A stretch of 63,419 nt of DNA, filler included, from Reticulomyxa filosa (Eukaryota > Protista > Foraminifera): NCBI GenBank assembly GCA_000512085.1. It is 19 parts of 19 records of this genome, joined end to end, with 100 filler letters (N's around TTAATTAATTAA, not from the genome) between each part and the next. Parts side by side here need not be neighbours in the genome. Positions count along the whole stretch, not along the records: positions 36,036 to 48,433 come from ASPP01022870.1; 18 more parts are not named here. One strand, given 5' to 3'. The notes below the pieces were generated by a model. It had not been told where the DNA came from and did no database searches. It saw nothing but the letters and a program-made list of their open reading frames with translations. Positions within the stretch are counted from its first letter, which is position 1. Each line of letters begins with the position of its first letter. Shown here piece after piece: positions 21,536 to 50,000 of the stretch. The translations under genes were made by a program, and so were the position numbers.

Positions 21536-21620
21536 ATTAACAAAAAAAAATGAAGAATATGATTGTGGTGTTAATCTTTGCTATGGTTCAAAAAAAGGTA
21601 TTATTCGTGTTTGGGGATAA
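21536..21620 (+). CDS. Last codons of a WD40-family gene
   Basis: VNLCYGSKKGIIRVWG* is nearly identical to the C-terminus of 36969-38313 (INLCYGSKKGPIRIWG*). Confidence 0.7.
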
Positions 21621-25403: not shown

Positions 25404-25582
25404 TTGATCATCAAAAATAAAGAGATTCGATTTTTTTAATCTAAAAAAAATATCTTTAATGACAATCAAATCAAATTTATTATATTTTGATACGTAAAAT
25501 ACTTTTTAGTTTTTTTGTTTTCAAGGTCATGCCACGTCTCCCTTTTTTTTTTTTTTTAAAAAAAAATTACAACATTAGCAAC

Positions 25583-28809: not shown

Positions 28810-29658
28810 GGTACGCGGGGCAATGTGATCGCGGTGCGGGAAGCAGATATAGATGGAACGCTCCATCGACACGTAGTCGGTCAGCACTGCCTGCAGGCGA
28901 CCGGCGCGAACGTCGGCCAGCACTTCGTGGCCCGGCAATTGCGCCACGCCCAGGCCCAGGCGGGCCATTTCCACTACCGAATCCACGTCATTGACGGTGT
29001 AGGTACCGGTCACTTCCAGCGGAATGCGCTCGCCATTGCGTTCGAATTCCCACTTGTACAGCCGGCCGGAGGTGGGGAACTGGAAGTTGATACAGTCGTG
29101 CGCCGACAGCTCTTCCGGGCTACGCGGCTTGCCGTGTTCGGCCCAGTAGGCCGGCGATGCCACCACGTACTGCGGAATGTGCGCCAGGTGACGCGCCACC
29201 ATACGGCTGTCCGGCATCATGCCGACGCGCACGCCCACGTCGTAACCATCTTCGATCAGGTCGCTGAAATGATCGTCCATACCAAAGAACACTCGGATCT
29301 TCGGATAACGCTGGCAGAATTCTTCCATCAGCGGCAGGATGAAGCGTCGACCGAAAGCATTAGGCAAACTGATGCGCAGATGACCGGCAGGCTCGTCACG
29401 GCTGGCCTTCAGCTGATTGATGGCAGAGTCCAGGTTATTGACCGGGCCGCGGCACTGCGCGTAGAAGCGGCGGCCGTCTTCGGTCAGCGTCAGCTGGCGG
29501 GTGGTGCGGTTGAACAGGCGCACTTCCAGCTCCTGCTCCAATCGCGCAATGCTCTGGCTGACGGCAGCAGGCGAGACGCCCAGCTTGCGAGCGGCATCGG
29601 AAAAGCTGCCATTCTCGGCAGTGGTCATGAAGACCATAAGCGCTTTTAATGTATCCAT
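28810..29658 (-). CDS. Bacterial LysR-family transcriptional regulator (CrgA/DmlR-like), 3' truncated
   Basis: HTH motif GSFSDAARKLGVSPAAVSQSIARLEQELEVRLFNRTTRQLTLTEDG; PAGHLRIS, DLIEDGYDVGVR, VASPAY, GLGVAQLP; high GC, no introns. Confidence 0.97.
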
Positions 29659-30065
29659 CGGGCTATCTCGCAAATGACATATTCAGGGCGGCAAATGCCA
29701 CCCGATTTGAAAATGTTGCCAGTATAAAGTTCGGCAAAATTGACACTATCGCTGACAAATAATAGGACAAAATCAGATTCACTTAAAGATATTTTCGACT
29801 TTCCTGTCAAATGACGGTTTACCACGCCGCATCGCAACAAACTACCCGCCGTTCAGCCAGTTGGCACCGTCCTATCAGCCAGTTTGCAACCTGATGCAGA
29901 TTTGCAACAGCCAGGCACAGCGCAAAGCCTGATTTCGTGTTACCGCAATACCGCACCAGATAGCAGCCATGCATTTTACTCATGCCAAAAGCAAGAAATG
30001 TTGGGTTGCCCTGCCCCCTTGGTTAAGATAGCCCCTCAACACAAAAAACATACAAGGGGAACAGT
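29659..30065. promoter_or_regulatory. Divergent bacterial promoter region between the LysR gene and its likely target
   Basis: AT-richer intergenic region between divergent ORFs; Shine-Dalgarno-like AGGGGA at about 30055-30060 before ATG 30066. Confidence 0.55.
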
Positions 30066-30446
30066 ATGTCGAAAGGTATTCCTTTTGCGTCTGGCTCAAT
30101 CTCCGCGGGTCTGTCACACGCTCAACTCAGCCAGTTGCTGGAATGGATCCACGGCCTGCCGCAAATGGCAGACGAGAGAGAAATGCACACTTTCCTGCAG
30201 GCGCTTGGCAAGGAAGCCGAGGTATCAGCCCTGTGGATTATTCATGGTCAGGCCACACCGCAAGGCTGGCATGCCAGCCCGCGCAGCTTCGGTCAGCCGG
30301 CAGCCTGCCACAGCCACGACTGGCAGCGCCTGCCGGACGATATCGGCCAGCAGGTGCAATTCAGCTGGTTGCCCCACACCAGCCCGGCAACCGCCTGCTT
30401 TGCGCTGCAACGCGACGGCTTTGCCACGCTGCTGTACGTACAACCG
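30066..30446 (+). CDS. Bacterial protein, N-terminal fragment (unknown; possibly a sensory/regulatory N-terminus)
   Basis: ATG with RBS, GC-rich codon usage, open to the contig end. Confidence 0.7.
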
Positions 30447-30789: not shown

Positions 30790-33600
30790 CATAAAACAAA
30801 AGAAAGACAACACCTTACAACGACCAAAAGGTCAATGCAAAAATAATTAAAAGAAAAACAATAAAGTTATTCCCTGCCTTGACAGCTTTAATTCTAATGT
30901 CTGGTTTCCATGCTCGGTCTCCAACAATGAAATATTTCATCGATAGGAACAATATATTAATATTTGGAAGAAATATCTAGACATTTGTCCACCAACTGCG
31001 ACGTAATTCTTGACACCGCAAACAATCCATCAGGAAATGCTCGACAGTCTCTTCTTCTTCACACCAAAACAATCAGGAGAATCTGATCTTTCGATGTTGT
31101 ATAAATAATCATTCAGTCCAACTTTGCCAGTAATCAACCGACAAATGATTCTGCGTTCACTAAATGTCAATGAACGCATAACAATCTTCTCAAAAGATTG
31201 AGCTTAGATAAAAAATATCGTGGCATTACATGTCTTGGATTACCCACTCCTTTGCATATCCAATGTCTGTGAAATAGGGATTTAATCCATGATTATTCAG
31301 TAATGCCGCTGGTCTATGTTGTGGGATCAGACCAGGAATTCCAGAATGATTAAATAAAGGATTGCAATGTGCCGCATTACTTATGACACAGTCAATGTTA
31401 TTTCTCAACTTCCTCCGCTTGTAATTCAAGATCCAAGTATCCAATCAATGGAATTACGAAGCAATGAGACTTGCATTGAAGTATGTCGGTGATCATTACA
31501 GATTCCATAGTGGACTGATTGCAAGTTCGTGATCAATGCATTATTCAACAAATGTGATTCCGACGTCTATAAAGTGCCAATTATGGATTGGTATCCGCTG
31601 TACCATTCCAAAATGCCGAAGCATGCTCAGGACTTGGACGAATGATGGTCTTGTATAATAAATTATATTTGGATAGACATAATTGACATGCTTGGAATAA
31701 GTCATATGAGAATCAAGATACTTCACATGGTCACATTCCCTCAAATTGGAATGCTGCAATGTCAATTGCATCTTTGGGAATATCTTCTTGTTCTGGTGTC
31801 TGAATGTCCAAGATTCGACAGCTTTATCCAATGCTCTGTATTGTCCAATACAATAGATTGCATCCAATTGTCAATATTTTTCAATCTCAATCTAAATTGT
31901 TCCCATTTGTTGCTTCTCAGTCTCAATCTTTTGTTGTTCAATTCGTGGTGATGACCACGTGGTTTTGATATTGAACGTCTGCATAAACGGTCAATATCTG
32001 CAATGCACATCCAATTCAACATCATCTGTTCTCCAATTGCTAACAAATGGAAGAATATATGATGTGCATAATGTAATATCAATGCTTGGTGTTGCGTACA
32101 ATTAAATGGTAATGTGTTAATAATATTTAATCCATTGGACACAATGAAATCGAGAATACAATCACCAACGTCGTCGGTATTATGATCCAACCATGCAGGA
32201 TGATGCGCATTCCAATCTCCTCCAATGATTATGTGTTCACTTATTTTCATAGCATGATGTAATTTCTTGCTCAAATGCTTGAATGTTAGACTGCTTGCAT
32301 TGCAAATTTCGATCAAATACATTAAATGTATCAGGCATAATATTAAATGATCGTGAAATGGAATGTAAATTTCTTCGACATAACACTCCAGATCTTCCTG
32401 TCTCACTCCAATGACGAACATAAAGATGCTGGAAATTATAATCAATGTCCTTCTTCTTCGATCGAAAACCTTCTTAACTTCATCTCTTGATCTGTTTCCA
32501 ACTCCCATGATTGCACGAGTGTCGTGATTTCACGTTTCAATGACGAGATTTCATCAATTTCATATTGCACAGAATCACTTGGATGACCTTTCTTGCACAA
32601 TACACATCGATGTCGACTTGGATCATTCTTGTGTCGATATTTCGATGCTTCGTGGTTTTTCAGACCACAATGCTTGCAAATCTTTCTCTTCTGTGGGCAT
32701 TCTTTAGCAATGTGGTTCAATTTATAACAATTTCGACATTGCTTGAAGTGATGCTGGGTCTTGATCTATTTTTATCAAATATAACTGCTTGTGCCATTGA
32801 GTTGGCATTTTGTTGAACCTTTTCACTGTTCAACTGAATATCCATATTCTTCCAACGTCTCTTTGATCTCCTGCTCACTTTCTTGCACGGGAACATTCTT
32901 CAATAACACAATCTTATTCAATTCAGGATTGTATATCTCTTGTTGCTTACGTTTTTTAATTTCATCAACGTAATTTCGTCGATATATTTGACATCTGATC
33001 TGTCGCTTGGTTTTCTTGACTTGCTCTTCGGACTTTTCATCCCCATTGAAAGCGATTGTCTGTTATTGAACGTTTTGCATAATTGCCGCAATTATTGAGC
33101 ATTTACATTGACAGCAAAATGGACGTACATTGTTTTGAGATTTACAGAGAATGTATGTGCAATAACATTTCTTGACAATTGATTATTGTTCTTCAAGCCA
33201 AGAAACTTAAGTACCGATGTCGCTGACTTAAGATCTTTGGCTTGAATTGGTGTGATCACCAATGTTGGTGATGATGAATATCATCATTTTCTGGCAATTT
33301 CCGTTTCTTTGCCCTGTTTGGATGCCATCAATATCCATTGCTGATTGTCGTTGTTGCGATAATGGAATACCTGAATTGCCAATACCAGAATGTCCAAATA
33401 ACTGATTCAACATATCCGATTTCATCCAAATTTCCCATTTGGAATCTTGAAATCTTTTTTTTTTTAGCCAGAATGAGATCTTATCCTAGTTAAAAAAAAA
33501 TGAGCACCTCGTCCCAAAAGGACGCAGTATTCTAAGAAAAACAAAATAAAGGAAAAGATCCACAAAAAATTTTCAGACTCACACACAATCGACAACAATA
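30790..33600 (-). mobile_element. Decayed non-LTR retrotransposon (gag-like ORF1 + APE endonuclease/RT ORF2)
   Basis: ORF1 zinc knuckles (C-xx-C...NHIAKEC, CKHCGLKNH, CVLCKKGHPSDS); APE motif IIIGGDWNAHHPAW and GDCILDFIVSNGLNIIN; RT thumb remnant VKYL-DSHMTYSKHVNYV; C-terminal RLITGKVGLN...SPDC...ETVEHFLMDC; many frameshifts and deletions. Confidence 0.88.
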
Positions 33601-36035: not shown

Positions 36036-36388
36036 AACAACAACAACAACAATATAATAAATTAATTCCTAATTCAATGTTATTTAAAATCGTATATCAA
36101 ATGAGATTTGATTTATCAACTCCTATTTGGTGTGTTTTGATACAACACTTATTGGCCAATGCACATTCTTCCAATGATCCTTTTCTTCTTCCTTCAATTG
36201 CAACATATCAAGAAATTATTATTTCTCATTTAAAATCATTTGCACATTCGACTCATCTGGCTCCTGTTATACACACTATTTCCTCTTTGTTTGATCGTCT
36301 TGCACATACTCCGACTCAAACTTCATCATCTCCTAATAAAAAAAGAAAATTAAATGATGGAACCTCGATTACAATTTCTTTTACATAA
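36036..36388 (+). CDS. 3' fragment of an unknown protein with NLS-like PNKKRKL
   Basis: Open frame from the contig edge to a stop at 36388. Confidence 0.4.
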
Positions 36389-36968
36389 ACTTCTTTTCTT
36401 ATTAACAGTATTATCTTGAAATTCATTTCTTTGAGAAAAGTATGATTTTAATTTTTTATTGAATCCTTACTAATTGTTTGAAAAATTTAAATCTTTTTTG
36501 ACAAGAATTTTCATTTTATAAAAAATTGCTTAACTTTTGAAAATTTTTGATTTATTGATTTTTAAGCAGTATTTCTCGTTTATTATTGATAGTAGCGCTT
36601 GAGCAAAGATAGATTTAAAAATAAGTAATTTTTAAATTACAAGCCGAAAAATTGACACAATGGCAAAAAAAAATTAGATTAAAAAATTTTCATTTAAATT
36701 ATGTCATTCTTAACATAAAAATTACTTTGCAGTCATTTATTTTTGTTTTTTTTAGCTCTATTAATGATTTTATTTTTACAGAATTGTTATCGATAATATT
36801 TTTATAATATCTCTTCGGTTTCATTATAAATAACATTGCTAAAGGACGATCACTTAAAGCAGCCATGTATGACTTTTCTCGTTGTAAAAAAAAATTTCAA
36901 TTTTCGTCAAAAAGTTTGGCTAGTTTTCATCTTCATTGATCTCAAGAGACAATAAAAGGAGTTAAAGA

Positions 36969-38313
36969 ATGACCACTCTTTGTAGTGAAAAGCGAACTTC
37001 AACACAACCAACATTGGTAATCTTCATTTCACTCTTTCAAAACGCAAACCGCTTTTTTGTAACTTTGTGATTGAATCAGACAGAAGAAGAAGAGATTCAA
37101 TTAATTATTGGACATTGGGTCCGGACACTAAATATTAAATTGGGGTGGATCCAAGATTTTGACACACTTGTTGTCAACTATGTTATGTTTTTTCATTCAA
37201 TTACAAATACGTATATATTCATAATACTATTTAACATAGGCATCTACTATCTTTATGCTTGATACGTTTCGTTCGTCATCTAAATTACTCAAAACTTTCT
37301 TTGGACATACCAAGCAAGTGTGGAGTATAGATTATTCAACATTTAATGACAGTAAATTCATTTGCTCTGGATCAGGTGATAAAACAGTTCGGGTATGGGA
37401 TTTAGAGACTAATAAACAAATTCAATCATTCCATGAATACGTAAATGATGTGTATTGTGTAAAATTTTCACCATATCATATCCATAATCATCGTCGTAAT
37501 GTCATTTGCTCTTCATCAAATAATAATACTGTTCGTTTTTTGGATGTCAAAGATAGTCAACAATTACAAGTATTCAATGGACACACTGCCTGGGTTTGTG
37601 GAATTGAATTCTCACCTTTTAATGGTAATCGATATGTGTGTTCTGGATCCGGTGACAAAACTATTCGTTTATGGGATATTGAAACATCAAAATCATTGCA
37701 TATTTTTAATAGACATACAAATGTTGTTTGGTGTGTTGACTTTTCACCATTACAAAGCAACAATAGTGATAATAATAAAAATAATAGTATTGGTGTAGTT
37801 GGTGGTAATGGGTATACAATTTGTTCTGGATCAAATGATAAAACCATTCGCATATGGGATATCGAAACAACCAAACAATTGATTACATTCATAGGACATG
37901 AACTTTTGGTAATGAGTATAAAATATGGATCAAATGAATTATTAAATACAATATTATCTGGATCTTCAGATAAAAGTGTTCGTTTATGGGATATTCGATC
38001 TGGTAAACAAATTCAAGTGTTTAATGGACATACAAATTGGGTGAATGCTGTTGAATTTTCACCATTTTTGGTAAATAATGATAATGAAGTTGGTGGTAGT
38101 TCAAATGTGATATGTTCTGGATCAAAGGACAATACAATTCGTTTCTGGGACATTCGGTCGAATAATAAAGAATTACATTTGATCAAAGAAGATGACAAGG
38201 AAGATAATGGAATATTTTGTCTTAAATTTCTACAATTAAAAAATAATAGTCGCAGTTGTTATATCAATTTGTGTTATGGCTCAAAAAAGGGTCCAATTCG
38301 TATTTGGGGATAG
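36969..38313 (+). CDS. WD40-repeat protein (lineage-expanded family), 3 exons
   Basis: Exons 36969-37016, 37080-37181 and 37240-38313 in frame; repeated GH...CSGSxDKTIRxWD units; exon 2 encodes HWVRTLNIKLGWIQDFDTLV. Confidence 0.92.
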
Positions 38314-38677
38314 TACTTTCTTATAAAAGGGCAAAATGTTGAAAAACCACACTAATATTATTCAAGTTTGGCCAAAAAGTTCATCTCATCATCCAAAACA
38401 GTTCTTTATTGAGTTTTCCATCTGCACAAGGATCTTTAAAAAAACCAGATGTGTTAGGTCTCCTTTTCCATAGGCATTATCCCATCTATCAGCTGATGTC
38501 GATAAAAGAATGCAAGTGTTTAACTCTTTTACCATTTACTTTTTCAATTAAATAGTAATAGCAGACTTATCCTTTCCTCAGAAAATTGATTGATGCGGAC
38601 AAATAATCTCTTTTCTTCTTTTCAAAGTTCAAAAGGTTATTTTGACAACACTCAATTATATTTTTAAAGTTTATGAA

Positions 38678-41600
38678 CTATCGCCCAAAGTGACTCTCAC
38701 CCAAAGTGACTCTCACCAATGGCTCAATTGTCCTTTTTGAGTCTAATTTAACAACACCATTTTCAATAGCAAAGATTATTTTGTCACAATCATATTTTGC
38801 TTTCCTAAAAATAACAGTATTGCAATCACTTCCAACTACAATCGTCTTGATATCTTCATGGCCTTTTTTAAGTGCTTGCAGGCGATCTAACAAACGAGCT
38901 GGTAATGAAATCAAATTATGTCGTTGACCAATTGTCAGACGACGTGCCAATGTCTCAATCAATGAACGCTGCTCCATTAGATTTTCAAAAAATGTTACCA
39001 ACACATTGATTGCACATGCATTTGAAAATACATTATTCAATGTTGCAATCACCGTGTCGTGGTACTCTTTCAATGTTGGGTTTTCTTCTATCATTTTGGT
39101 GTATTCTTCTTCCATTGTTCTATTGTCAATCTTTTTTTCATCATTGTTAAACAATGTGTCTTCCAGACAACGGTTTGGAGATTCTTCAACATAATTAGTT
39201 GGTGATAAATTATATTCATCTGATTCTATCTCCATAACTTTTTCTTCACACGATAATAATTCTTGTAATTCCACTTTTTTTTCTTCATTTTTGTCAGATG
39301 CGTATTTCGTGTATGATGTCTTCATTTTGATGTTTTCATAATACGTGTTTGCGATTCTACTAAGAGTAATAATCTCATGGCATTTCCAAATATCGTCTTT
39401 TGCCTCTGTGTTCCAAATTTCAGATTTTTTAAAAACTATTTCACCATGTAAACAATTTAATGCTTTTTTTGCATTGGCGTTTTTATCATTTAAAGCAATG
39501 GTTAATTTATTTAACACACTTTCTGTAACTGATCCCATTGAACTTAATACCCCTAAGAAATTTTCACGAAAAGAAATGTTAACCTTTAATTTAAAAGATA
39601 ATTGATCCACTACATTTTCTGTTCCTATAGCAGGCTCAAAACTATCAAAGATTTTGATCACTTTTCTGCAAACTCTGATATCGTCGCTGAGAATAACCAA
39701 ATAATGTAGTATATGTTCGACAACTACATCCCAGCCCATGAAATCCAATATCATTTCGGCATTTGCACAAACTTTACTATCCTTGTCAATCAAAGCGAAA
39801 ACTAAGTAATTGATCACATTTTGTATAACTTTAGATGGCTCCGTCAAACACAGCATATTGACTACAGTTAATGCCTTCAACACATCTTCTGTTGCTTCAA
39901 TTTCCCTGAATTCTCTCAACGTGCGTGTTACACTCTTACAAATCCGATTTTCTATATCCTTTAATGAAGTCGTCAATACTTCCAACACATTCGTTGTGAC
40001 GGCTTCTTTTCCCAGAACAATCAATGAAATTAAAGCATTCACACGAGTATTACAGTCCTTATTTTTCAAATCAATGATTAATGAATTCAATACAAATTCT
40101 AGTCCAGATTGTACCAGTTTTCTCAATAACTTTACCACATTTCGATAAACATACCAGTCTCTACTCTTCAAAGCATGTATTAATGACTCTAATGTATGTT
40201 GTCCTATCCTTGCTGCACTATATCGACCATTGTGATCATTACCCTCCAAAATACTTATCAATGTATCTAATACACTCCACGATCCGTTTTCTACAATAAA
40301 AATCAATATCTTTGCATATGTTCTACTATGCCAATCATCCTCCAACCTACTAATCAATGAAGTTAATACAATCTCTGGTCTTTTTTGTCCAATCAAAGTC
40401 AATATCTCTTCTGCATATTGTCTAATACACACATCATCATCCCTCAAAACAGCGATCAGTCCATTTACCACGCTCTTTCTTGCCGTAGCAGATCCAAGAA
40501 CACCTAATATCGCAACTGCATTTCGACAAAACTTTGAATTTTCGTGTTTCAAAGCAATAAGAAAATTATCGAGTATATTTTCTGTATCCACAATTGATCC
40601 CATTGAACCTATTATTTTTGCTACGTTTTTACAAATATCTTTATTCTCATCTTCCAAAGTACTGGCCAATTGACGTAATAATTTTTCGGCATCTGTAGTT
40701 GGTCTCGGCTCCTTTTCTTCTTCTTCTTCTTTACGGCCACACAGCTCTTTGGTCTTGAAAGCAATAAGTAATGCGCTCAGTACGTCCTTTGCAGATGCAA
40801 CTGTTGCCATTGAGCACAATGTCTTTGCTGCTTCTTCACGAACACTTTGATCTTCATTCCTCAATGCAAAAACCGATCGATCTAATATATCCTCTGTGAT
40901 TACTGTATGCTCTACCAAATTCATAGCTTGCACTGCATGCATGAAAACTATGATATTTTCATCTTTCAAAGCAACTTTCAATTGATTAAAAATTATACAT
41001 TTTTCATCTTCTTTGATATTATTTATCCGAATTAAGTGTTTCATAATGTCTTCTGGCTTTTCTTCTTCTTTAACAATATTTGCAATTTGTCTGTCAAATT
41101 TCTCTAAAAATCTGAACAAGTCATCTTTGCATTGTTGGGTTTGAATATTCTCAAATTGATTATGAAAGGTAATCTCAATTTGTTTAAGTAAATCGTTTTG
41201 TGGTGGATGATAACGAAGGAACAATGCCCGTGGACAGCATTGAATAATTGTCGGGAATGTTGTGTCCAAGAGTGTCACTTGTTTGAGTTGGGATTGTCCT
41301 TCTGGTAACATTAATTTTGTCAATCCTGTTGAATCAATCAATTTACATCCCTGAATATCTAATACAGACAAGCTCTTACTTTTTGTTGATATATTTTCAA
41401 TGATGGAACATCCACTAAGTTGTAATACTTCCAAAATAGGTGCATTCAATTTCAAACTAAATAAATTAATTGCACCACTGGTTTTCCATTTTTTCAAATG
41501 TGGCATTTCAATGGATATATTCACTTCTGTTAATTCTTTACAGTTGTCTGCTTCAAAGATGACCAAGCTTGTTGCCTGAAACTTGTTTAACATCGTTATA

Positions 41601-44600
41601 CCTGACTCACTTAAAGTTAATTCACATATAGATGGTAAAATCAATGATGAGGCTCCTCGTAACTGGGAACAACGTTTTGCTATTAATGTTTGTAATGTTT
41701 GGCATTGATTTGCAATCATATTTAAACCATTATCATCCATCGTTGTATCACTCATATCCAACCAACGCAAATTCTCCATCACAGAAAAGAAGTTCTTTAT
41801 TTTCATACTCAAAGTAACTCTGTCAATATTCCAAAGTTTGAAATTGAAACCGCGAAGTGATAATTCTTCAAAGGGTTTAGATTCTACAATTCGCAGTAAC
41901 GATTGTTGTCGTTTATCAGGCAATTTATTCCAATTAAAAGGAAGAAAACCACGTTCTGAATCGCCTTTCAGTATCAATGTCTGATATTCAAGTGAGAGTA
42001 GTCTTTTAAATGTTTTAAAATATCCTGATGCTACTTCGTCACAAATTTTTTCCAATTGATGATATTGATAACTCAATTGATCAAGTTCTGCCAATGCCTC
42101 AGCTGGTGTTAAATCCTTTAAATCCCAATAACTTGTTTCCAGAGTATCTTTCACTCGCATAGTGATTTTAGCACTAGATAATGTATACAATGCACGAGTA
42201 TTGGATGACAATACGCCATGTTGATTCAATTGATATCTCCCTAATCGAGCAAATCTTTCAATTGGATCTTTGTATTTCTTCAAGGTATCACTGTATGTAA
42301 AACCTGCTTTCGGGTGAAGTTGAATAAGACATTGTAATCCTGTCACATCCGGATGGCCTTGTAATAATGTTCGAAGTTTCAACCATCGACTATATACAGC
42401 AACTGCATCCCCCTTTTTTAGAGGAATTGGAACTGTGCAACTTTTGTTTGAATCACTGCGATGCCAAAGACGAATATCATCAGGTGGAAACATTTTTGCA
42501 TATATTTCATTTTGTGATTGAGTGTCTCGAAATATTGACTCCATTGTTTGTCTTACATCCAATGCCAAAAATCTTTCTCTTGCAGTTGAATTAATTTGTT
42601 GATGCATATGATCCAGACAAAACAAGATTGTTTTGATTTGCAATTGAATATTTTTTGTGTTTTTATCTGGAAGCCAATCAGGGAATAAAGCATGATCATG
42701 ATCAATACTCACTAATGTGGTCTTTTCATTATTCAAATGTTTAACGATGTAATTAGTTGGCAGACCATCTTCTGGATTGATTAATAATGCAACAAATAAC
42801 AATTCCGTGTAGTGTTGGTGATCCAATTTGTTCAATCTCTCTGGTTCTTTTTCAAACACTTCTTGCAAAGTAGGTCCATGAATGGCTTCTGAACAAAGTA
42901 CTGGAATTGTGCTACCATCAACACATTTCAAACATACCAATTCACTATGATATGTTCCATGACCTATAATTCGATGATGAAATTGTTCTATCAAATAACT
43001 CATTCCTGGCATTTCAGGCCATGCTTTAGCATAAATTGTTGGTAAATTATCAGATTGTAATTTTATTGGAATCACATTCCTTTGCCCACTACTTATTTTA
43101 TTATCTTTGAATTTTCCATTTTCATTCAATAATTGAGCAGCTACTTTATTTTTCAATGGTTTACATCCACCAATCAATGGACTGTTAAATGTGGGTTCAC
43201 CTTGTTTTGGAACTCGATCTTCCACTAATTGTTCAAGTATTGATTTCCATCTCTTTTTTTCTTCTTTCCAAAGAGTCGTTTCTCCACATCTGTCCGGAAT
43301 ACAATGTAATGCAGTCAAGACACCACTTAGAAACTTTTGAACACCTTCTTCTTCATTTTCATGATAAAACATTAAAATTTGACGGAATGCAACTCGGACA
43401 TTCATTCCATCCAATGATTGATAAATACTTTGATATACTTTTAATTCTCGATGTTTCATCACTAGTAAATCAATGAGCCGTGATAGACTTGATTTTTTAT
43501 TTGTGACATCAATACCAAGTTCTCTTTCAGCTTTTTTTAGTAGATCCATCCGTTGATTACGTACTCGCTCAAATGCAGGTCGTAATAATACAAATAATTG
43601 ACATCGACGAATTGAACATTCGGCTGCAAATGCACCTCGACTTTGTTCTCCTCGATACCATTCAACAACTGACTCATCTGCATATTTATTTTGTTGCTTT
43701 TTTTCATCTTTCCATTGTTGTATCCTTTTGTTCCATTCAAAATGGTAAGCTTCCATCTCTTGTTGACATTTTATTAACCATGCTTCACGCAATTGAGAAC
43801 GATCAATAATATTACTCAAATTTGTTCTGCCATGTGCCTCAAGTTCTGCTAGAAATGTGGCCTTTTCTTCAGGAATAACAAGTAAACCTCTACATATTCC
43901 TAATACTTCCAAACTCAAATCTGCTTGAATACAATTGACGGCCCAATTACGAACTAATGATTGATTCCAAATATTCCATTGATTCATTTTACCCATTGTA
44001 AGAATGTATCGTTGATTTTGAGCATGAACTTCAAAAATTAAACCTTCTATGTCATGAGGATCCAGGCAATAACGAGTTCTATAACACCCAATTGCTTCAT
44101 CCATTTCATTAAATCTGGCATGAACTAGCGCTTGTCCAAATAATTCGTTTCGATTAATCGTTGTGCTCTTTAAAAATAATGGATTTCCTTCCTGTTCACT
44201 CCATTGTTTTGCACTTTGATACAACGACCATACAGTTGAATACATTTGTTTCAATTGTTGTTGTTCATTGGAATTAAGACGATAAGGTTGTATTTCTGAA
44301 GAAGGAACATGTGTATTTGGTTGATATAGCCATTCGTGTGACGATTTATAATGCATTTGGGTCTGTATACGCCATTGCAATACTTGATGAATCAATTCAC
44401 GCAAGAATGACACTGTATTGTCACAAACTGCTCTCATTCTCTTCAATTCATTCAATTGTTCAATAATATGACTAATCTTAATTCTATGATATAAACTTAA
44501 TGCCAATATAATTTGCTGAGGCAATCGATACAATTGGTCCTTCACAGAAATTCCAATACGCTCTTTTTCAAATGTATCTGCTGCTTGTGACATTGGATTT

Positions 44601-45268
44601 AAAGACTCTGAAATTTGTTTGACAATTCCCAATGAAATATCTTCTCGTAAGTGATGAGGTTTTGACCAACTTCCTAAATTTAAGTTCAAATATTGATACA
44701 AAACCTCTTGATACCAACTTCCTAAATTTGTGTTTAAATATTGATTCAAAGACTCTTGATAAATGCGAAATAGTTCATCTGATCCAACTATCTTTCGATA
44801 ACTCAATAAAATTTGACGATCAAATAATTTTGAAGTACTTCTTTGAATATTAACCAAGTCAATTGGTGTGTGAAGCAAAAGATCTGAAGTACGATGTGGC
44901 ATATAAAAATGATCTGCATGTAATCCGCTGCAAATAATTTGTGGTGATTCGTTGCAATTGTCAAATAAATGCAATAACTCTTCAGGAGTCTCTCCTAATC
45001 CAATTAATGCGATTTCAAACATTGCACTTGCATTTATAAAGTATTTGCGAATTTCAAGATTATCTTCTGCAATCAAACAAGCACACTCAACATCTGAATA
45101 AGGTGTTGCTTCTTCACGTCCCAATGATCCCAATGCTAACAGTGTACATTCACAAGGAGGTTGAGGCAATCGATGGAAAACAAATTCCCAAACCATGTTC
45201 AATATTCTACACAATCCTTTTGTCATCCGTTTTGTGGATGTAATTGGAGAAGTATCTTCACTTATCAT
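38678..45268 (-). CDS. 2196-aa intronless multidomain protein: DUF294/GlnD-like nucleotidyltransferase, HEPN-like helical domain, PI3/4K/HipA-like kinase, LRRs, HEAT repeats, unknown C-terminal domain
   Basis: PPC...LGSLGREEATPYSDVE (NTase GS/DxE, about 45160-45080); WRIQTQMHY (about 44375-44350); YAKAWPEMPG, INPEDGLPTNYIV and LVSIDHDHAL (about 43040-42690); LRRs at about 41880-41260 (LRWLDMSDT, LEVLQLSGC, LSVLDIQGC); HEAT repeats at about 41000-39450 (LRNEDQSVREEAAKTL). Confidence 0.85.
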   Translation of the reverse strand: MISEDTSPITSTKRMTKGLCRILNMVWEFVFHRLPQPPCECTLLALGSLGREEATPYSDVECACLIAEDNLEIRKYFINASAMFEIALIGLGETPEELLHLFDNCNESPQIICSGLHADHFYMPHRTSDLLLHTPIDLVNIQRSTSKLFDRQILLSYRKIVGSDELFRIYQESLNQYLNTNLGSWYQEVLYQYLNLNLGSWSKPHHLREDISLGIVKQISESLNPMSQAADTFEKERIGISVKDQLYRLPQQIILALSLYHRIKISHIIEQLNELKRMRAVCDNTVSFLRELIHQVLQWRIQTQMHYKSSHEWLYQPNTHVPSSEIQPYRLNSNEQQQLKQMYSTVWSLYQSAKQWSEQEGNPLFLKSTTINRNELFGQALVHARFNEMDEAIGCYRTRYCLDPHDIEGLIFEVHAQNQRYILTMGKMNQWNIWNQSLVRNWAVNCIQADLSLEVLGICRGLLVIPEEKATFLAELEAHGRTNLSNIIDRSQLREAWLIKCQQEMEAYHFEWNKRIQQWKDEKKQQNKYADESVVEWYRGEQSRGAFAAECSIRRCQLFVLLRPAFERVRNQRMDLLKKAERELGIDVTNKKSSLSRLIDLLVMKHRELKVYQSIYQSLDGMNVRVAFRQILMFYHENEEEGVQKFLSGVLTALHCIPDRCGETTLWKEEKKRWKSILEQLVEDRVPKQGEPTFNSPLIGGCKPLKNKVAAQLLNENGKFKDNKISSGQRNVIPIKLQSDNLPTIYAKAWPEMPGMSYLIEQFHHRIIGHGTYHSELVCLKCVDGSTIPVLCSEAIHGPTLQEVFEKEPERLNKLDHQHYTELLFVALLINPEDGLPTNYIVKHLNNEKTTLVSIDHDHALFPDWLPDKNTKNIQLQIKTILFCLDHMHQQINSTARERFLALDVRQTMESIFRDTQSQNEIYAKMFPPDDIRLWHRSDSNKSCTVPIPLKKGDAVAVYSRWLKLRTLLQGHPDVTGLQCLIQLHPKAGFTYSDTLKKYKDPIERFARLGRYQLNQHGVLSSNTRALYTLSSAKITMRVKDTLETSYWDLKDLTPAEALAELDQLSYQYHQLEKICDEVASGYFKTFKRLLSLEYQTLILKGDSERGFLPFNWNKLPDKRQQSLLRIVESKPFEELSLRGFNFKLWNIDRVTLSMKIKNFFSVMENLRWLDMSDTTMDDNGLNMIANQCQTLQTLIAKRCSQLRGASSLILPSICELTLSESGITMLNKFQATSLVIFEADNCKELTEVNISIEMPHLKKWKTSGAINLFSLKLNAPILEVLQLSGCSIIENISTKSKSLSVLDIQGCKLIDSTGLTKLMLPEGQSQLKQVTLLDTTFPTIIQCCPRALFLRYHPPQNDLLKQIEITFHNQFENIQTQQCKDDLFRFLEKFDRQIANIVKEEEKPEDIMKHLIRINNIKEDEKCIIFNQLKVALKDENIIVFMHAVQAMNLVEHTVITEDILDRSVFALRNEDQSVREEAAKTLCSMATVASAKDVLSALLIAFKTKELCGRKEEEEEKEPRPTTDAEKLLRQLASTLEDENKDICKNVAKIIGSMGSIVDTENILDNFLIALKHENSKFCRNAVAILGVLGSATARKSVVNGLIAVLRDDDVCIRQYAEEILTLIGQKRPEIVLTSLISRLEDDWHSRTYAKILIFIVENGSWSVLDTLISILEGNDHNGRYSAARIGQHTLESLIHALKSRDWYVYRNVVKLLRKLVQSGLEFVLNSLIIDLKNKDCNTRVNALISLIVLGKEAVTTNVLEVLTTSLKDIENRICKSVTRTLREFREIEATEDVLKALTVVNMLCLTEPSKVIQNVINYLVFALIDKDSKVCANAEMILDFMGWDVVVEHILHYLVILSDDIRVCRKVIKIFDSFEPAIGTENVVDQLSFKLKVNISFRENFLGVLSSMGSVTESVLNKLTIALNDKNANAKKALNCLHGEIVFKKSEIWNTEAKDDIWKCHEIITLSRIANTYYENIKMKTSYTKYASDKNEEKKVELQELLSCEEKVMEIESDEYNLSPTNYVEESPNRCLEDTLFNNDEKKIDNRTMEEEYTKMIEENPTLKEYHDTVIATLNNVFSNACAINVLVTFFENLMEQRSLIETLARRLTIGQRHNLISLPARLLDRLQALKKGHEDIKTIVVGSDCNTVIFRKAKYDCDKIIFAIENGVVKLDSKRTIEPLVRVTLGESHFGR
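44665..44760. repeat. 48-bp in-frame tandem duplication inside the giant ORF
   Basis: Units 44665-44712 and 44713-44760 encode YQESLNQYLNTNLGSW / YQEVLYQYLNLNLGSW. Confidence 0.9.
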
Positions 45269-46386
45269 GCATTTTGACGTAATTTCGTCAGTAGTTTACT
45301 CCACGTTTTACACAATTCGGATGGAATTGCTTCTGAACTTGGTAATACTTGTGCCAATACTCGTATTTGTTGACTTGATGATTGCTTTTGCCAGGACAAT
45401 GCATTGACCAAATTGAAATGTTTGACTGCCATCGTACAAGCAGCTGCGGCATAACCCATTGATTGACGATAAATAGCCCTTCTTACATCTATGTTATTCA
45501 TCCAAGACGAGTGTGATAACATTGCATCACTAAGTGCTAATAAACATGCAATTGCAAGTTGGGGAACAGAATGCATAGATTGAATCACCAATGTTTCATA
45601 TTCTACACAACATAATGATAATTTTTTTGAATGATATTCAATTGCTTCGTTTTCAGATAATCGTTTGTTTGGAAAAGATAATCTAATTGTTTGAGCACGG
45701 TCGTATTTGGCTTGGAATGAAATTTTAGTATCTGAATTAAGATTATCAGGCCAATAAATTGGAGGTTGTAAATAAGGGATCAATTCAATAGATCCATGCT
45801 TTAATACTTCGTGTTCAGCACGATCACCATTAACAGTAATTGCTGATATATCTGCTTGATGTTCCAAAAGCCATACAATTGAATTCTTTTGTCCATTGCG
45901 AGATGCTTTATGCAACGCAGTGTAACCATAATTATTTCCTTTATTTATATCTAATTCTGGACATTTGTCCAATATCCATTGAAGCAATTCACATTGTCCA
46001 GTTAAGGCCACTGCATGGAAAATTGTACTTCCTTCTTCATTGGCTTCATTTATCATTCGTTTGATTGCTTCTAAACATACGTGTTCACTCAACCATTTTG
46101 TTGCTTCTTTAACATTTTTATTCCGCTGCATTCCATCTGCCCAATAAAACAATATATTTTGTTTCATTCCATCATGTGTTTGCAATAGAGATTCATCACT
46201 CTTTAATAATTCTGTGGCACAATTCCATTTTCCATAGCGCAACGAATACAAAAATAATTTCTGTAAACATGTCTTTGGATTGTTTTGCATCTTAATCCAA
46301 GCCAAAAGTTCTTTTGGCTTGTCTTGTTGCACGTATTCTTCTCCTGTTAGGGAGAGAGACGTCGGTAAGCTTGTCTCAGCCGCCAT
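45265..46386 (-). CDS. Ankyrin-repeat protein; probably the N-terminal part of the adjacent giant ORF
   Basis: GSTIFHAVALTGQ, GYTALHKASRNGQ...LLEHQADI; its TGA overlaps the next ATG (ATGA, 45268-45265). Confidence 0.85.
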   Translation of the reverse strand: MAAETSLPTSLSLTGEEYVQQDKPKELLAWIKMQNNPKTCLQKLFLYSLRYGKWNCATELLKSDESLLQTHDGMKQNILFYWADGMQRNKNVKEATKWLSEHVCLEAIKRMINEANEEGSTIFHAVALTGQCELLQWILDKCPELDINKGNNYGYTALHKASRNGQKNSIVWLLEHQADISAITVNGDRAEHEVLKHGSIELIPYLQPPIYWPDNLNSDTKISFQAKYDRAQTIRLSFPNKRLSENEAIEYHSKKLSLCCVEYETLVIQSMHSVPQLAIACLLALSDAMLSHSSWMNNIDVRRAIYRQSMGYAAAACTMAVKHFNLVNALSWQKQSSSQQIRVLAQVLPSSEAIPSELCKTWSKLLTKLRQNA

Positions 46387-46914
46387 TTTACAAACGCGCT
46401 AAAAAAGATAATAAGGAGAAATAATGATTAGCAAAAACATTCTATTTTTGATTTGATGATATCCTTTTTTTTTGGGGTGCCCAAAAACTCTTTTGTAACA
46501 TGAAAACGCGGAAATCAAATGTTATTTATTTTTTTGTTATTTCAACATTAAAACAACACGAATTGAAGTTTTTTTAGGATATTTAGAGCAGAATCTTAAA
46601 AGTTTTTTTTACACATTTTAAAATGTAATTTCTTCTCTTAATCACTTTGACGATAAATTCAACAGCAACTAATGCAGTGTTATGAAATCAGCCAACGCGG
46701 CCATATTTCAGTGGCTAATCTTGATTGTTAAATTCAATTGAGTTTTCAGCTCATTATGTGCATTATCAATGATTTTGCAATGAATGTAGTATTATTTTAT
46801 TCAAATAAGTTTTATTCAAAATGAAAAAATAGACAATGCATAACAATACAGCAGTTTTATTTGATATCAAATTTTTTTGAATTTTTATTTTTTCGAAAAG
46901 TCAAAATTTTAAAT

Positions 46915-47065
46915 GACTGTCATGTTCAAGAAATAATACCATTCGATTGTATAATGTAAAGTCAGTATATGAAACAAAGATTAGAAGGACATTACAGTGA
47001 TGTGAATGGAATGGATGTTTCACCAAATAGTAACACAATTGTGTCGTGATAATACAATAGGATAC
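46915..47065 (+). pseudogene. WD40 remnant
   Basis: SCSRNNTIRLYNV and LEGHYSDVNGMDVSPNSNTIVS with frameshift/stop. Confidence 0.6.
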
Positions 47066-50000
47066 TATTGTACAGTTAAACAAAACATTTAAAATGTTTT
47101 TAAAAAGATAGTTACAATCAATCACAAACAAGTTTTTGCATTATTTACTTAAATAATCTTTTTTTAATTCAATCGAGCAATCTAAATATCTGTTTCCTCT
47201 TTTAAATTCAGAGAAATATCCTGACGTCTTTGGAGAGAACACATATCCATTTTGTAAATTAATAGTTAATCGAGCGAAAGGAATGACAAATTTGAGATAG
47301 CAAGTAAAATGTGTGTACATATGTTATGGAATATCTTAAACTATTTCTAAAGAAATCAGATACAAATACTATATAAGTTGCATTTGATTGAAATGACATA
47401 CATTCGCATTATTTTCTTTTACTATGAGGTCAATGCTAATATCAAAAACTTGTGAAATAAAATAGATTTGATAACTTTGTTCATTACAACTTTTGCACAT
47501 ATTTATTTTTTTTAAGTAAAATGAATTTTTTTCACATTTTCGACATTACTTTAAAACTAACAAATTAATTCCGAGCCAACTCAACATCAAACAAGTTTAA
47601 TCAAAATGCCAAATAATAGTCATAACAATTATGACAACTACATCATAAGATGAGAAAGGTGTTGACTTTTTTTTAACAATGAAAAAATTTAAACTTTCAT
47701 TACTTTTCTTAGAAACATGTTTTCGTTCTATCATTATAATGACGCAAAAACTACAAGTTAAATATGTTTGTATTTACTTGTTTGAATGTCTTAACTAAAA
47801 AAAACTGTGGAAATGCATAGTCTTGATTTGGAGTGTTATTGCACGAGTATGTATGTAAAAATGATATAAGTGTCAATGCGGACATATACAAAAAAATTCT
47901 ATGATGAAATGCTCAAAATTATTGTTTTTATAAGATAATGAAAATTGTATATTTCAGCGAGATAATGTCAACAGTTACAAATCAATTACAGTAAAAGAAT
48001 AGTTTGAGCAAAACGATATCAAAGTATTTAATTTTACTCTAAATTCTCCAGACATAAATCCAATCAAATTGTTTTGGACAGTGAAAACAAAAATATACAA
48101 AACGAACCAGTCAGAACAAGAGAATGGCTTTTTTTTTTTTTTTTTAACAGAGTGTTTCCAAGTTCAAAACAAAGTACCTCGTCCAAAAAGAACCTTAGCA
48201 CTACAAAAACAAAAAATAACAAGGAAACCACAAATTTACAATGTTATACGTATTTAATGCCAAAAAATAAAAAGAAAGTTCTTTGAGTTGCAAAAATTGT
48301 ATTCAAATTTTTCTATTAGTTTGAATGATAAACGCAGCTGTTGATTTCACCACTGCTACTCTGATTTCTGATTGCCATTCCTTCTTTCACACCAAGTCTT
48401 TCAAACTCAGTGATGATATTGAAAGATGGGGAANNNNNNNNNNNNNNNNNNNNNNNNNNNNNNNNNNNNNNNNNNNNTTAATTAATTAANNNNNNNNNNN
48501 NNNNNNNNNNNNNNNNNNNNNNNNNNNNNNNNNTTTTTTTTTTGTTGGATGAAATCACCATTCTTTCAAATGATTTTTGAAAATTTCTTAATTTTAATAA
48601 AAGTGTAAATGATACGCATTCTCGCAGAATTTTCAAAAATCATTTGAAAGAATGGTGATTTCATCCAACAAAAAAAAAAGTTAGCACACGATATCACAAC
48701 ATCATGGTGTTTGATTATATTGTGTTTTGAACGACGAACTGGCGTCATTGTGTGTCGACTCTTGTATTAGTGAGTAAAATATTTGATATAAATATAAGCC
48801 AAGATGATATTTTATTTTCGTTTCGCTCAACATTTGAAGAACGTTATTGATTGCGCACATAAATACTACATTATTTCTTTCTAAGCCGTACCACAATTAT
48901 TAAATGGTTAAAATTATTTACTAACAATCCAACAAAAAAAAAGTGATCACTTTCCGCTCCAACAAACATTTGGCAACGTGACGTTTTTGTGACAAGTTTT
49001 ACATTGTTTTTGTTTAAAACTAGCATAGACGATATTTTTTTCACCAAAATAATAACAACAATTCTAAAAAATTGTTTTCTTTTACTTTTTTGCTCTGGTA
49101 GTTTTTAAAGATGTTTCGCTATGTTGGATTGTAAAGATTGATAGTACGTGAACAATATTATATGTAGTCATGTTCGTGCTTCTTGTTGTAAAGCGCTAAT
49201 TGCCATTTTCCAAGCTTCTTAAACTCTCCAATGGCTAGACATAACTTAAAAGCATATCGTTGGAGTTATGTGATGAAACGATTGTGGTGAAAATGTATGA
49301 TCATTGTTAAGATTGTTATTCGTTCGCTTAAATATCGCCACATATTTTCTCTTTTGTTTGAGGACGTCTTGAGCTAATTTGAAAAAATCGTATCATTGAG
49401 AAAAATAAAGATTATATCACATCATCAATATATTGTACCACTGCTTTAATCAGCAACTCAAATGCTTAAATATACTTAGGCGTCTGTCAAATATATTTAG
49501 CACAGAGATTCGTTATTGCTCATATGCTTGCACAATTCTTCAACGCGACTGTGTTACTTTGAAAACGAAATTGTTTATTTTTGCCACATTATCGTTTATC
49601 AAAAAGACAGTGAAATTTCTGTTGTTTTTTTTTTTGTGTTAGCTTTTGCAATTTCAAACTCCTTGTCAAGTAAAAAAAATTCGACAGTGATAAGGGGGTC
49701 TTTTTTTTCTTTCGTAAAGATTTATTTTCTTGATCTTTGTCTGAACCTTTCGTTAAGGATGCTCATTGGCAAGCAGTATTTCCTTTCGTTTCTACCGCAC
49801 GAGCATCCATAATATTTTCTCCGTTCCAGTGAAGAACACGTCTTTGCTTAAACCAAAAGCTTTTTGATTCTGTTATAAGTTCGTTGTGATTATTGTCGTG
49901 TTCAAAGCATTCTCATTGTTTTTTGTTTAAATTTCTTTATTTCTTTTTTTTAAACAAGAAAGAGCGGTTGAAGTGGAAAAATGTTTATACCGATTTTTTT

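What the first reader, a model, noticed from the sequence alone, without database searches (positions are those of the whole stretch)
38678..46386. Giant intronless Ank-NTase-HEPN-like-kinase-LRR-HEAT unit: candidate domesticated effector or innate-immune sensor/effector
Seen: 7.7 kb of coding sequence with no introns, on a contig that also carries a 3-exon host-type WD40 gene and WD40 debris, so it sits in eukaryotic DNA. Domain order is ankyrin; Pol-beta-fold NTase (LGSLGREEATPYSDVE); helical domain with R-x5-H (RIQTQMH); atypical kinase (AK, EDGLPTN, IDHD); LRRs; HEAT repeats. Known: NTase plus HEPN is the core of MNT-HEPN toxin-antitoxin modules and of DUF294/GlnD-like enzymes. PI-kinase/HipA-like domains, ankyrins and LRRs are typical of effectors from amoeba-associated intracellular bacteria. 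Inference: two or three candidate enzymatic domains plus three ligand-binding repeat types in one chain suggest a sensor-effector (nucleotidylation, RNase, lipid or protein kinase), built from bacterial-derived enzymes and host-type HEAT repeats. I know of no characterised protein with this architecture.
Basis: partly seen in the sequence, partly recalled or inferred. Interest (0 to 1): 0.9.

Follow-up and report, generated by a model that had tools for sequence, protein, structure and literature searches.

The report
Captured bacterial AMPylase-kinase gene in foraminiferan
A giant six-domain gene, split here by a one-base frameshift, lies between host-type sequences in what is likely Reticulomyxa (foraminiferan) DNA as one of at least seven copies; it was likely captured ready-fused from a bacterium and is predicted to attach AMP to proteins and phosphorylate membrane lipids rather than cut RNA.

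Summary
The domain order is real, but the 7.7 kb is two minus-strand ORFs (373 and 2,196 aa) joined by a one-base frameshift; a contiguous 2,504-aa paralogue in Reticulomyxa filosa shows it is one gene. No intron was found. A three-exon WD40 gene lies downstream and a WD40 remnant upstream, so it is probably nuclear. At least seven loci exist, most of them split. AlphaFold models place the NTase plus helical unit with Legionella DrrA and GlnE (Z 25.9, 23.3) and the kinase with PI4KII-alpha (Z 16.4). The catalytic residues of both are conserved across the family and intact here. The HEPN RNase idea fails: the histidine is present in 15 of 49 outside relatives and absent from the intact paralogue. 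The chain was not assembled in the host: Ank-NTase-helical-kinase-LRR genes sit on clearly bacterial contigs, metagenomic proteins add HEAT repeats, and both enzyme trees nest Reticulomyxa among them. Best reading: a captured, amplified effector-type AMPylase/phosphoinositide kinase. No activity, expression or read support was tested, and this copy may be a young pseudogene.

The parts
45265..46386 (-). ORF1, 373 aa: N-terminal part of the gene (ankyrin repeats, then a helical linker)
   Evidence: 62% identical to P0001 residues 1-372
45826..46074 (-). Ankyrin repeats (ORF1 residues 105-187)
   Evidence: Pfam Ank_2 E 6e-12, Ank_4 E 1e-14
45272..45275 (-). One-base frameshift at a run of four A; gives the 4-nt stop/start overlap of the two ORFs
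   Evidence: tblastn of the contiguous paralogue P0001 changes frame here with no gap; no reads available
38678..45268 (-). ORF2, 2,196 aa: NTase, helical domain, middle helical region, kinase, LRR, HEAT, C-terminal domain
44744..45247 (-). Pol-beta-fold nucleotidyltransferase, DrrA/GlnE type; G47-S48, D59, E61, D119
   Evidence: DUF294 E 4e-8; model pLDDT 86; DrrA Z 25.9; conservation
44665..44760 (-). In-frame 48-nt tandem duplication, copies 88% alike, absent from P0001, P0002 and the P0020 model
44189..44656 (-). HEPN-fold helical domain (DUF294_C), second half of the AMPylase; K243 and R300 conserved, H306 not
   Evidence: DUF294_C E 9e-4
43199..44131 (-). Middle region of about 310 aa, no family assigned; weak matches in the nearest outside relatives
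   Evidence: no credible Pfam hit
42014..43201 (-). Atypical kinase of PI4KII/LepB type; K748, D834, N839, D856
   Evidence: model pLDDT 88; PI4KII-alpha Z 16.4; Atlas LepB_N 0.93; conservation
41249..41881 (-). Leucine-rich repeats
   Evidence: LRR_6 E 6e-5, LRR_4 E 6e-4
39449..41011 (-). HEAT repeats (PBS-lyase/HEAT_2 type), the most divergent part among paralogues
   Evidence: HEAT_2 E 3e-19; 33-36% identity to paralogues against 76-78% for the kinase
38681..39091 (-). C-terminal domain seen only in the Reticulomyxa copies; 47 aa shorter than in P0001
   Evidence: no Pfam hit, no usable Atlas hit
36969..38313 (+). Host three-exon WD40 gene, convergent, ending 364 nt from the giant gene
46911..47073 (+). 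Frameshifted WD40 remnant upstream of the giant gene

Best explanation
This is one copy, split by a one-base frameshift, of a likely nuclear Reticulomyxa gene family that was likely acquired once as a ready-fused bacterial effector-type gene and is predicted to encode a protein AMPylase and a phosphoinositide kinase in one chain. Shown: domain order, frameshift, host-type DNA on both sides, at least seven loci, intact catalytic motifs, same order in bacterial genes. Predicted from folds: the NTase and helical domains form one DrrA/GlnE-type enzyme that would use D59, E61 and D119 to bind Mg-ATP and transfer AMP to a protein hydroxyl; the kinase would use K748, D834, N839 and D856 to phosphorylate a phosphoinositide. 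Inferred by analogy with DrrA and LepB: ankyrin, LRR and HEAT repeats would bring the chain to a partner on a membrane, where it would change the lipid code and lock a trafficking protein such as a Rab GTPase, so resetting the identity of a vacuole; the host would use this on food or symbiont vacuoles. My odds by step: nuclear 0.85; bacterial, pre-fused origin 0.85; AMPylase 0.75; lipid rather than protein kinase 0.6; this copy intact in the living cell (frameshift is a sequencing error) 0.5; vacuole or Rab role 0.3.
For: Fold: DrrA Z 25.9, rmsd 3.6 A over 287 residues, GlnE Z 23.3 and 21.7, lone HEPN domains Z 8.5 or less; Foldseek DrrA E 1e-7; family profile against DrrA E 1.6e-12 across both halves. 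Kinase: PI4KII-alpha Z 16.4, rmsd 3.5 A over 248 residues, next family 12.2; Atlas LepB_N clusters 0.93. Conservation outside Reticulomyxa: G47 49 of 49, D59 47, E/D61 47, D119 46; K748 136 of 138, D834 137, N839 133, D856 137. Within Reticulomyxa the kinase set is intact in 6 of 7 rows and the acidic triad in 4 of 6 rows that cover it; enzymes diverge least (70-78% identity) and HEAT most (33-36%). Origin: Reticulomyxa is one clade in both trees (99/97 and 100) inside a 100/100 clade that holds genes from bacterial contigs; L002 lies beside mraY-murF-murE-rsmH, L003 near traD, L001 is a gammaproteobacterial MAG contig. Nuclear: spliced WD40 gene on one side, WD40 remnant and 2 kb without a long ORF at 27% GC on the other, codon usage r 0.92 with six window genes against 0.15-0.59 with three bacterial relatives. 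No stop in 2,569 codons where 2.4-7.7 would be expected without selection (rough estimate).
Against: Nothing was assayed; a shared fold shows no function. This copy is frameshifted and carries in-frame indels, among them a 47-aa loss in the last domain that the near-identical P0172 appears to share. Five of seven long loci are split in the gene models, at different places; 3 of 5 tails tested read as one-base frameshifts; P0004 has lost the kinase residues and P0022 the NTase residues. No reads or RNA could be laid. The host carries a Rickettsiales symbiont (PMC10847448, passages), and an AT-rich bacterium could share the codon bias. The nearest tree neighbours, P0028 and P0032, and the HEAT-bearing P0026, P0005 and P0031, have no known source organism; the node that nests Reticulomyxa among bacterial genes has only 87/84 support. 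The three HEAT-bearing relatives do not form one clade, so HEAT repeats may have been added more than once. CotH, actin-fragmin kinase, CtkA and HipA (protein kinases) also score Z 9-12. No secretion system was shown for the donors (uninformative).
Confidence: 0.55

Rival explanations
1. Passenger DNA: a bacterial effector gene entered the nucleus, was multiplied by the host's general gene duplication and is now decaying; it has no role in the host, and this copy is a young pseudogene.
For: Frameshift here; 5 of 7 long loci split and 3 of 5 tails explained by one-base shifts; catalytic loss in P0004 and P0022; indels and worn HEAT repeats in this copy; no intron gained.
Against: Paralogues differ by 20-30% in the enzymes yet keep the catalytic residues, and divergence is ordered by domain; no stop in 2,569 codons; two of the three shifts read as T-rich runs (Phe-Phe, Val-Phe-Leu), where sequencing slips are common (general knowledge); P0001 is contiguous.
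Confidence: 0.22
2. One reading: an innate-immune sensor-effector assembled in the host from bacterial enzymes and host HEAT repeats, with a HEPN RNase as killing output.
For: Multi-copy family with fast-changing repeats; HEPN-like fold (Z 8.5); R-x5-H present in this copy and in 5 of 7 Reticulomyxa rows; HEAT-bearing relatives are not one clade, and the last domain is Reticulomyxa-only.
Against: His in 15 of 49 outside rows, Tyr in the intact P0001; the residue after Arg is hydrophobic, whereas active HEPN RNases have a polar one and NTase-fused DUF294_C domains lack the motif (PMC3710099, passages); DrrA has Arg and Lys at the matching places; the order pre-exists in bacteria; no host HEAT protein matched.
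Confidence: 0.1
3. The gene belongs to a bacterial symbiont or contaminant and the contig is chimeric; the stop/start overlap is bacterial translational coupling of two genes.
For: Intronless, bacterial relatives, 4-nt overlap; a bacterial contig (LysR, 57.5% GC) is in this window; a Rickettsiales symbiont was sequenced with the host.
Against: It would need two junctions, as host-type WD40 sequence lies on both sides; no bacterial neighbour gene on the contig; ten Reticulomyxa contigs carry family members; the overlap falls inside a stretch that is continuous in P0001.
Confidence: 0.08
4. Same origin and AMPylase, but the kinase phosphorylates proteins (CotH, CtkA or HipA type), so the chain writes two protein marks and has no lipid role.
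For: CotH Z 12.2, actin-fragmin kinase 11.8, CtkA 10.2, HipA 9.4.
Against: PI4KII-alpha stands 4 Z units above them and ranks first in Foldseek; the named Atlas look-alikes carry LepB_N; one close relative touches PI3_PI4_kinase at E 0.008.
Confidence: 0.05

Closest known systems
Legionella DrrA/SidM N-terminal AMPylase (PDB 6YX5; Pfam SidM_N) and the GlnE/GlnD adenylyltransferases
   Same: Two-part fold of Pol-beta NTase plus helical domain (Z 25.9); G-S-x10-D-x-D/E motif and third Asp align; DrrA uses D110, D112, D150 for Mg and needs its C-terminal half (PMC7815794, passages).
   Different: 15% identity; Glu in place of the second Asp; no Rab1-GEF or P4M domain was detected; fused to a kinase and three repeat types; substrate unknown; lies in eukaryotic DNA.
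Type II PI 4-kinases and bacterial effector PI kinases (LepB, MavQ, AnkK)
   Same: Kinase fold closest to PI4KII-alpha (Z 16.4; MavQ Z 8.9); Lys, D-x4-N and I-D motifs; Atlas LepB_N clusters at 0.93. LepB, MavQ and AnkK phosphorylate PI on the vacuole (PMC9758233, passages).
   Different: 9% identity to PI4KII-alpha; no Pfam hit for the window's domain; LepB itself was not among the listed structural matches; lipid or protein substrate untested.
Undescribed NTase-kinase-repeat giant proteins of Gammaproteobacteria MAGs, Neochlamydia and Parachlamydia
   Same: Same cassette and order; 1,383 representatives at E 0.001 or better; 50 held rows carry both enzymes; P0026 has all six modules.
   Different: Their C-termini vary (LRR, HEAT, TPR, Ank, TIR) and many carry two kinases; the Reticulomyxa copies are host-flanked, AT-adapted and end in a private domain.
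MNT-HEPN toxin-antitoxin modules
   Same: Pol-beta NTase next to a HEPN-fold helical bundle (MNT Z 6-7, HEPN Z 8.5 or less).
   Different: Long GlnE-type NTase, not minimal; RNase His not conserved; part of a 2,500-aa chain.

Membership tests
DrrA/GlnE-type (DUF294 + DUF294_C) nucleotidyltransferases | Pol-beta fold with G-S and three acidic Mg ligands | tested here: met
   G47-S48, D59, E61, D119; 46-49 of 49 outside rows; aligned to DrrA
DrrA/GlnE-type (DUF294 + DUF294_C) nucleotidyltransferases | C-terminal HEPN-like helical domain packed on the NTase | tested here: met
   Z 25.9 over model residues 1-364; DUF294_C E 9e-4, below Pfam's cut-off
DrrA/GlnE-type (DUF294 + DUF294_C) nucleotidyltransferases | Transfer of NMP to a protein | not testable with these tools
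   needs an assay
DrrA/SidM orthologues | Rab1-GEF and P4M domains behind the AMPylase | tested here: not met
   Pfam scans show none; a kinase, LRR and HEAT follow instead
HEPN RNases / MNT-HEPN modules | Family-wide R-x4-6-H with a polar residue after Arg | tested here: not met
   H306 in 15 of 49 outside rows and 5 of 7 Reticulomyxa rows; R+1 is L, I, F or V in 39 of 49; criterion from PMC3710099
HEPN RNases / MNT-HEPN modules | HEPN helical fold | tested here: met
   Z 7-8.5 to lone HEPN domains
HEPN RNases / MNT-HEPN modules | Dimer with composite RNase site | not tested
   no complex job was run
PI3/PI4-kinase-like (PI4KII, LepB) kinases | Atypical kinase fold closest to PI kinases | tested here: met
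   Z 16.4 to PI4KII-alpha, next family 12.2
PI3/PI4-kinase-like (PI4KII, LepB) kinases | Catalytic Lys, D-x4-N and Mg-binding Asp | tested here: met
   K748, D834, N839, D856 in 133-137 of 138 outside rows; their match to PI4KII residues is recalled, a paper search did not confirm it
PI3/PI4-kinase-like (PI4KII, LepB) kinases | Membership of LepB_N (PF18640) by profile or structure | tested here: inconclusive
   no Pfam hit; Atlas 0.93 at ranks 23 and 26; LepB not listed
PI3/PI4-kinase-like (PI4KII, LepB) kinases | Phosphoinositide substrate | not testable with these tools
   needs a lipid panel
Gene transferred from bacteria into a eukaryotic nucleus | Linked to host genes on one contig | tested here: met
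   spliced WD40 gene and WD40 remnant on either side; assembly only, no reads
Gene transferred from bacteria into a eukaryotic nucleus | Nested among bacterial homologues | tested here: met
   inner node 87/84, several neighbours of unknown source
Gene transferred from bacteria into a eukaryotic nucleus | Intron gain or expression | tested here: inconclusive
   no coding intron; a possible acceptor 12 nt before the ATG; no run listed
Secreted bacterial effectors (donor proteins) | Secretion system in the donor and translocation | tested here: inconclusive
   DotA search of G001 blank, controls blank too
NLR/STAND immune receptors | NACHT or NB-ARC NTPase | tested here: not met
   none in Pfam, NCBIfam or PADLOC scans of both ORFs

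The most novel reading that the evidence does not exclude
A bacterivorous protist has domesticated and amplified a whole vacuole-hijacking effector: one chain that joins a DrrA-type Rab AMPylase to a LepB/PI4KII-type lipid kinase, two activities that Legionella delivers as separate proteins, and uses it with fast-changing HEAT sensors to control or take back its own bacteria-containing vacuoles. It would also open a large undescribed family of AMPylase-kinase effectors in uncultured host-associated bacteria.
Probability: 0.25. Interest if true: 0.85.

Novelty: new variant of a known kind. Interest (0 to 1): 0.58.

Why it matters
Effector traffic is usually described from host to bacterium (eukaryote-like domains in Legionella). 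This looks like the reverse: a complete effector-type gene kept and multiplied by a protist, with both catalytic centres conserved. If active, it gives a eukaryote a DrrA/GlnE-type protein AMPylase and ties AMPylation and phosphoinositide editing into one polypeptide, a coupling that can be tested directly. The search also exposes a large family (1,383 representatives matched) that my nine paper searches did not find described.

Tried and rejected
Intron at the junction: 29 GT-AG candidates restore an open frame, but all would delete residues that P0001 has; rejected. Two coupled genes: rejected, the stretch is continuous in P0001. HEPN RNase: rejected on conservation. Host-type HEAT: only the near-identical P0172 and three outside proteins matched among 7,996 scored candidates of 427-1,360 aa; word-limited, so not proof of absence. 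A by-eye likeness of the last domain to the N-terminus of P0010 failed. Reads: no run was listed, so frameshift, linkage and expression stay open. No whole genome is held, so paralogues were counted from database entries. Single-sequence search of solved structures: nothing; the kinase profile was swamped by LRRs. Viral contigs: 0 of 49 pattern matches confirmed; plasmids: no match; GTDB genomes: 1 of 155, exact patterns only. DotA search uninformative; no kin of G001 could be searched. LepB was not among the listed structural matches, which excludes nothing; a second-look fold search never ran. Atlas for the last domain: no usable hit. A first codon comparison had a wrong exon start and frame and was redone. 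Earlier scan notes: none. No complex was predicted, as no partner is known.
Full report
Setting. The window is a string of contigs joined by N spacers; the finding lies on contig 36036-48433 (12,398 nt, 31.8% GC, no internal gap). No whole genome is held and no sequencing run was listed. Two database entries 95% and 98% identical to parts of the gene are named Reticulomyxa filosa (P0020, 36 differences in 697 residues; P0172, 10 in 429), so the window is very likely this foraminiferan. That is an inference from similarity.

Observation. The coding stretch is two minus-strand ORFs, 46386-45265 (373 aa) and 45268-38678 (2,196 aa), overlapping by four bases. The R. filosa protein P0001 (ETO29818, 2,504 aa) aligns with residues 1-372 to 46386-45271 and 373-2498 to 45271-38696 in the next frame. 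So this is one gene with a one-base frameshift at an A4 run (45272-45275), and there is no room for an intron there. Elsewhere the window's insertions against P0001 and P0002 are a 48-nt tandem duplication, repeat-number differences in the HEAT array and short patches; I found no coding intron. NCBIfam and PADLOC gave only weak repeat matches.

Surroundings. A convergent WD40 gene has three exons with GT-AG introns of 63 and 58 nt. On the other side lie 2 kb at 27% GC without a long ORF and a frameshifted WD40 remnant at 46911-47073 (Pfam E 6e-4; 0 of 200 shuffles as high; a single-frame HMM test gave 3 of 199). Codon usage correlates at 0.92 with six pooled window genes and at 0.15, 0.36 and 0.59 with three bacterial relatives; an AT-rich symbiont could mimic this. 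R. filosa was sequenced together with a Rickettsiales symbiont (PMC10847448, passages), and the window holds one bacterial contig (LysR), so contamination is a real concern; here it would need two false joins.

Family in the host. Ten R. filosa contigs carry members: this one, and those of P0001, P0002, P0168+P0003, P0036+P0004, P0029+P0021, P0022+P0023, P0020, P0172 and P0125. P0020 and P0172 may be a second allele, so at least seven loci. Five of the seven long loci are split in the gene models. For 3 of 5 truncated tails tested, the tail is the same gene read one base off (0 of 300 shuffles as good against P0001); 2 of 5 were not explained. Identity to P0001 and P0002 is 70-74% in the NTase, 76-78% in the kinase, 58-60% in the LRR and 33-36% in the HEAT array. 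Without selection since the split from P0020, 2.4-7.7 stops would be expected in 2,569 codons; none is seen (P 0.09-0.0005 over the nine settings, a rough estimate). Whether the frameshift is a sequencing slip or a recent lesion cannot be told without reads.

First enzyme. An AlphaFold model of ORF2 1-400 from 29 sequences (pLDDT 86) matches DrrA at Z 25.9 (rmsd 3.6 A, 287 residues) and the two GlnE domains at 23.3 and 21.7; lone HEPN domains score 8.5 or less among 48,161 chains. Foldseek agrees, and the family profile finds DrrA at E 1.6e-12 over both halves. In 49 outside rows (near-duplicates dropped, 14 ids named in the script) G47 is kept in 49, S48 in 48, D59 in 47, E/D61 in 47, D119 in 46, K243 in 47 and R300 in 46. 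DrrA uses three acidic residues for Mg and needs its C-terminal half for an ordered active site (PMC7815794, passages). The rows were found by similarity to the query, so absolute conservation is inflated; the contrast between positions is what counts.

The HEPN question. H306 is present in 15 of 49 outside rows and in 5 of 7 R. filosa rows; the intact P0001 has Tyr. The residue after Arg is L, I, F or V in 39 of 49. PMC3710099 (passages) lists the GlnD/GlnE/DUF294_C family, DrrA included, as not conserving R-x4-6-H, and says that active domains have a polar residue after Arg. DrrA has Lys and Arg at the places of K243 and R300. I read the domain as the nucleotide- and substrate-binding half of the AMPylase; that role of the two residues is inferred.

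Second enzyme. The model of ORF2 690-1085 from 30 sequences (pLDDT 88) matches PI4KII-alpha at Z 16.4 (rmsd 3.5 A, 248 residues), then CotH 12.2, actin-fragmin kinase 11.8, PI4KIII-beta 11.2, Vps34 11.1, CtkA 10.2, HipA 9.4, MavQ 8.9; PI4KII-alpha also leads in Foldseek. The Atlas gives 28 of 30 hits to unnamed bacterial clusters (up to 0.97) and two to LepB_N clusters (0.93). K748, D834, N839 and D856 are kept in 136, 137, 133 and 137 of 138 outside rows and in 6 of 7 R. filosa rows. LepB, MavQ and AnkK are described as PI kinases acting on the vacuole (PMC9758233, passages). A protein substrate is not excluded.

Origin. A search of 1.84 billion representatives with ORF2 1-1100 gave 1,383 hits at E 0.001, of which 150 were listed. 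Named relatives are Gammaproteobacteria MAGs, Neochlamydia and Parachlamydia; most have no name. Ank-DUF294-DUF294_C-kinase-LRR genes lie on a gammaproteobacterial MAG contig (L001), beside mraY, murF, murE and rsmH (L002), and near traD or a MerR-type regulator (L003, L004). P0026 (66-kb metagenome contig) has all six modules in order, P0005 has Ank, NTase, helical, kinase, an LRR-like stretch seen by eye and HEAT, and P0031 has helical, kinase, LRR and HEAT; their organisms are unknown, but P0026 groups with L001 and L002 in the NTase tree (99). R. filosa is one clade in the kinase trees (62 of 157 rows; 26 rows with a mixture model, 99/97) and in the NTase tree (57 of 62 rows, 100). It sits inside a 100/100 kinase clade with bacterial-contig genes at its base and within it; that inner node has 87/84, and the sisters P0028 and P0032 are of unknown source. 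The two enzymes thus arrived together, most likely from a bacterium. The three HEAT-bearing relatives are not one clade, so HEAT may have come with the gene or been added later; no stand-alone host HEAT protein matched.

Mechanism. Shown: anatomy, flanks, copy number, motifs, bacterial counterparts. Predicted: AMP transfer to a protein and phosphoinositide phosphorylation. Inferred by analogy: the repeats dock the chain on a membrane partner and the two enzymes reset vacuole identity, as DrrA and LepB do separately; a bacterivorous host would apply this to food or symbiont vacuoles. The last step is the weakest (about 0.3). The main rival is passenger DNA in decay.

Literature. Nine full-text searches (listings and abstract starts seen) found no description of this architecture; 'Reticulomyxa, effector, nucleotidyltransferase' gave 0 papers. 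Passages were read in PMC3710099, PMC10847448, PMC7815794, PMC9758233 and bioRxiv 10.1101/2023.01.27.525846 (69% of prokaryote-derived genes in R. filosa have an intron, young ones less often). The R. filosa genome paper is not held, and no supplements were read; gene lists there may already hold this family.

Verdict. Observation partly confirmed; interpretation partly supported. New variant of a known kind, interest 0.58; 0.85 if active domestication for vacuole control is shown.

Noticed in passing
window 46399-46430, minus strand: A branch-point-like CTAAT, pyrimidine tract and TTTTTTAG end 12 nt before the ATG, and the N-terminal extension of paralogue P0002 aligns to this upstream DNA. 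Possibly a 5' UTR intron shared by paralogues, which would be a mark of host integration.
   Followed up: partly
window 28810-30446: Contig of 57.5% GC with a LysR regulator: bacterial DNA in the assembly.
   Followed up: partly
window 38681-39091: C-terminal domain of about 130-170 aa found only in the Reticulomyxa copies; no Pfam or Atlas match.
   Followed up: partly
proteins (e.g. P0008 Neochlamydia, P0034, P0035): Over 40 of 167 held proteins carry two copies of this kinase, and some two copies of the NTase unit: a large, shuffled, undescribed family.
   Followed up: no
L003-L006: Four near-paralogous giant genes on bacterial contigs, one near traD, one (P0024) with the kinase-LRR block doubled: the family also expands and may be mobile in bacteria.
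   Followed up: partly
C-termini of P0005, P0011, P0028 and P0026: By eye these end in cysteine-protease-like motifs (OTU-like, Ulp1-like; labels recalled); no such family was in the Pfam rows shown.
   Followed up: no
window 5860-5952, 21537-22302, 23350-23442, 11094-11336, 25529-26755: Further WD40 or Kelch family genes and remnants with the same short helical motif as the WD40 gene's second exon.
   Followed up: no
window 31762-32508: Endonuclease of the retrotransposon type (Exo_endo_phos_2, E 5e-11).
   Followed up: no
L001 5703-11244: Operon beside the relative: decarboxylase (FslC-like), synthetase-like protein and N-monooxygenase, perhaps for a siderophore or small metabolite.
   Followed up: no
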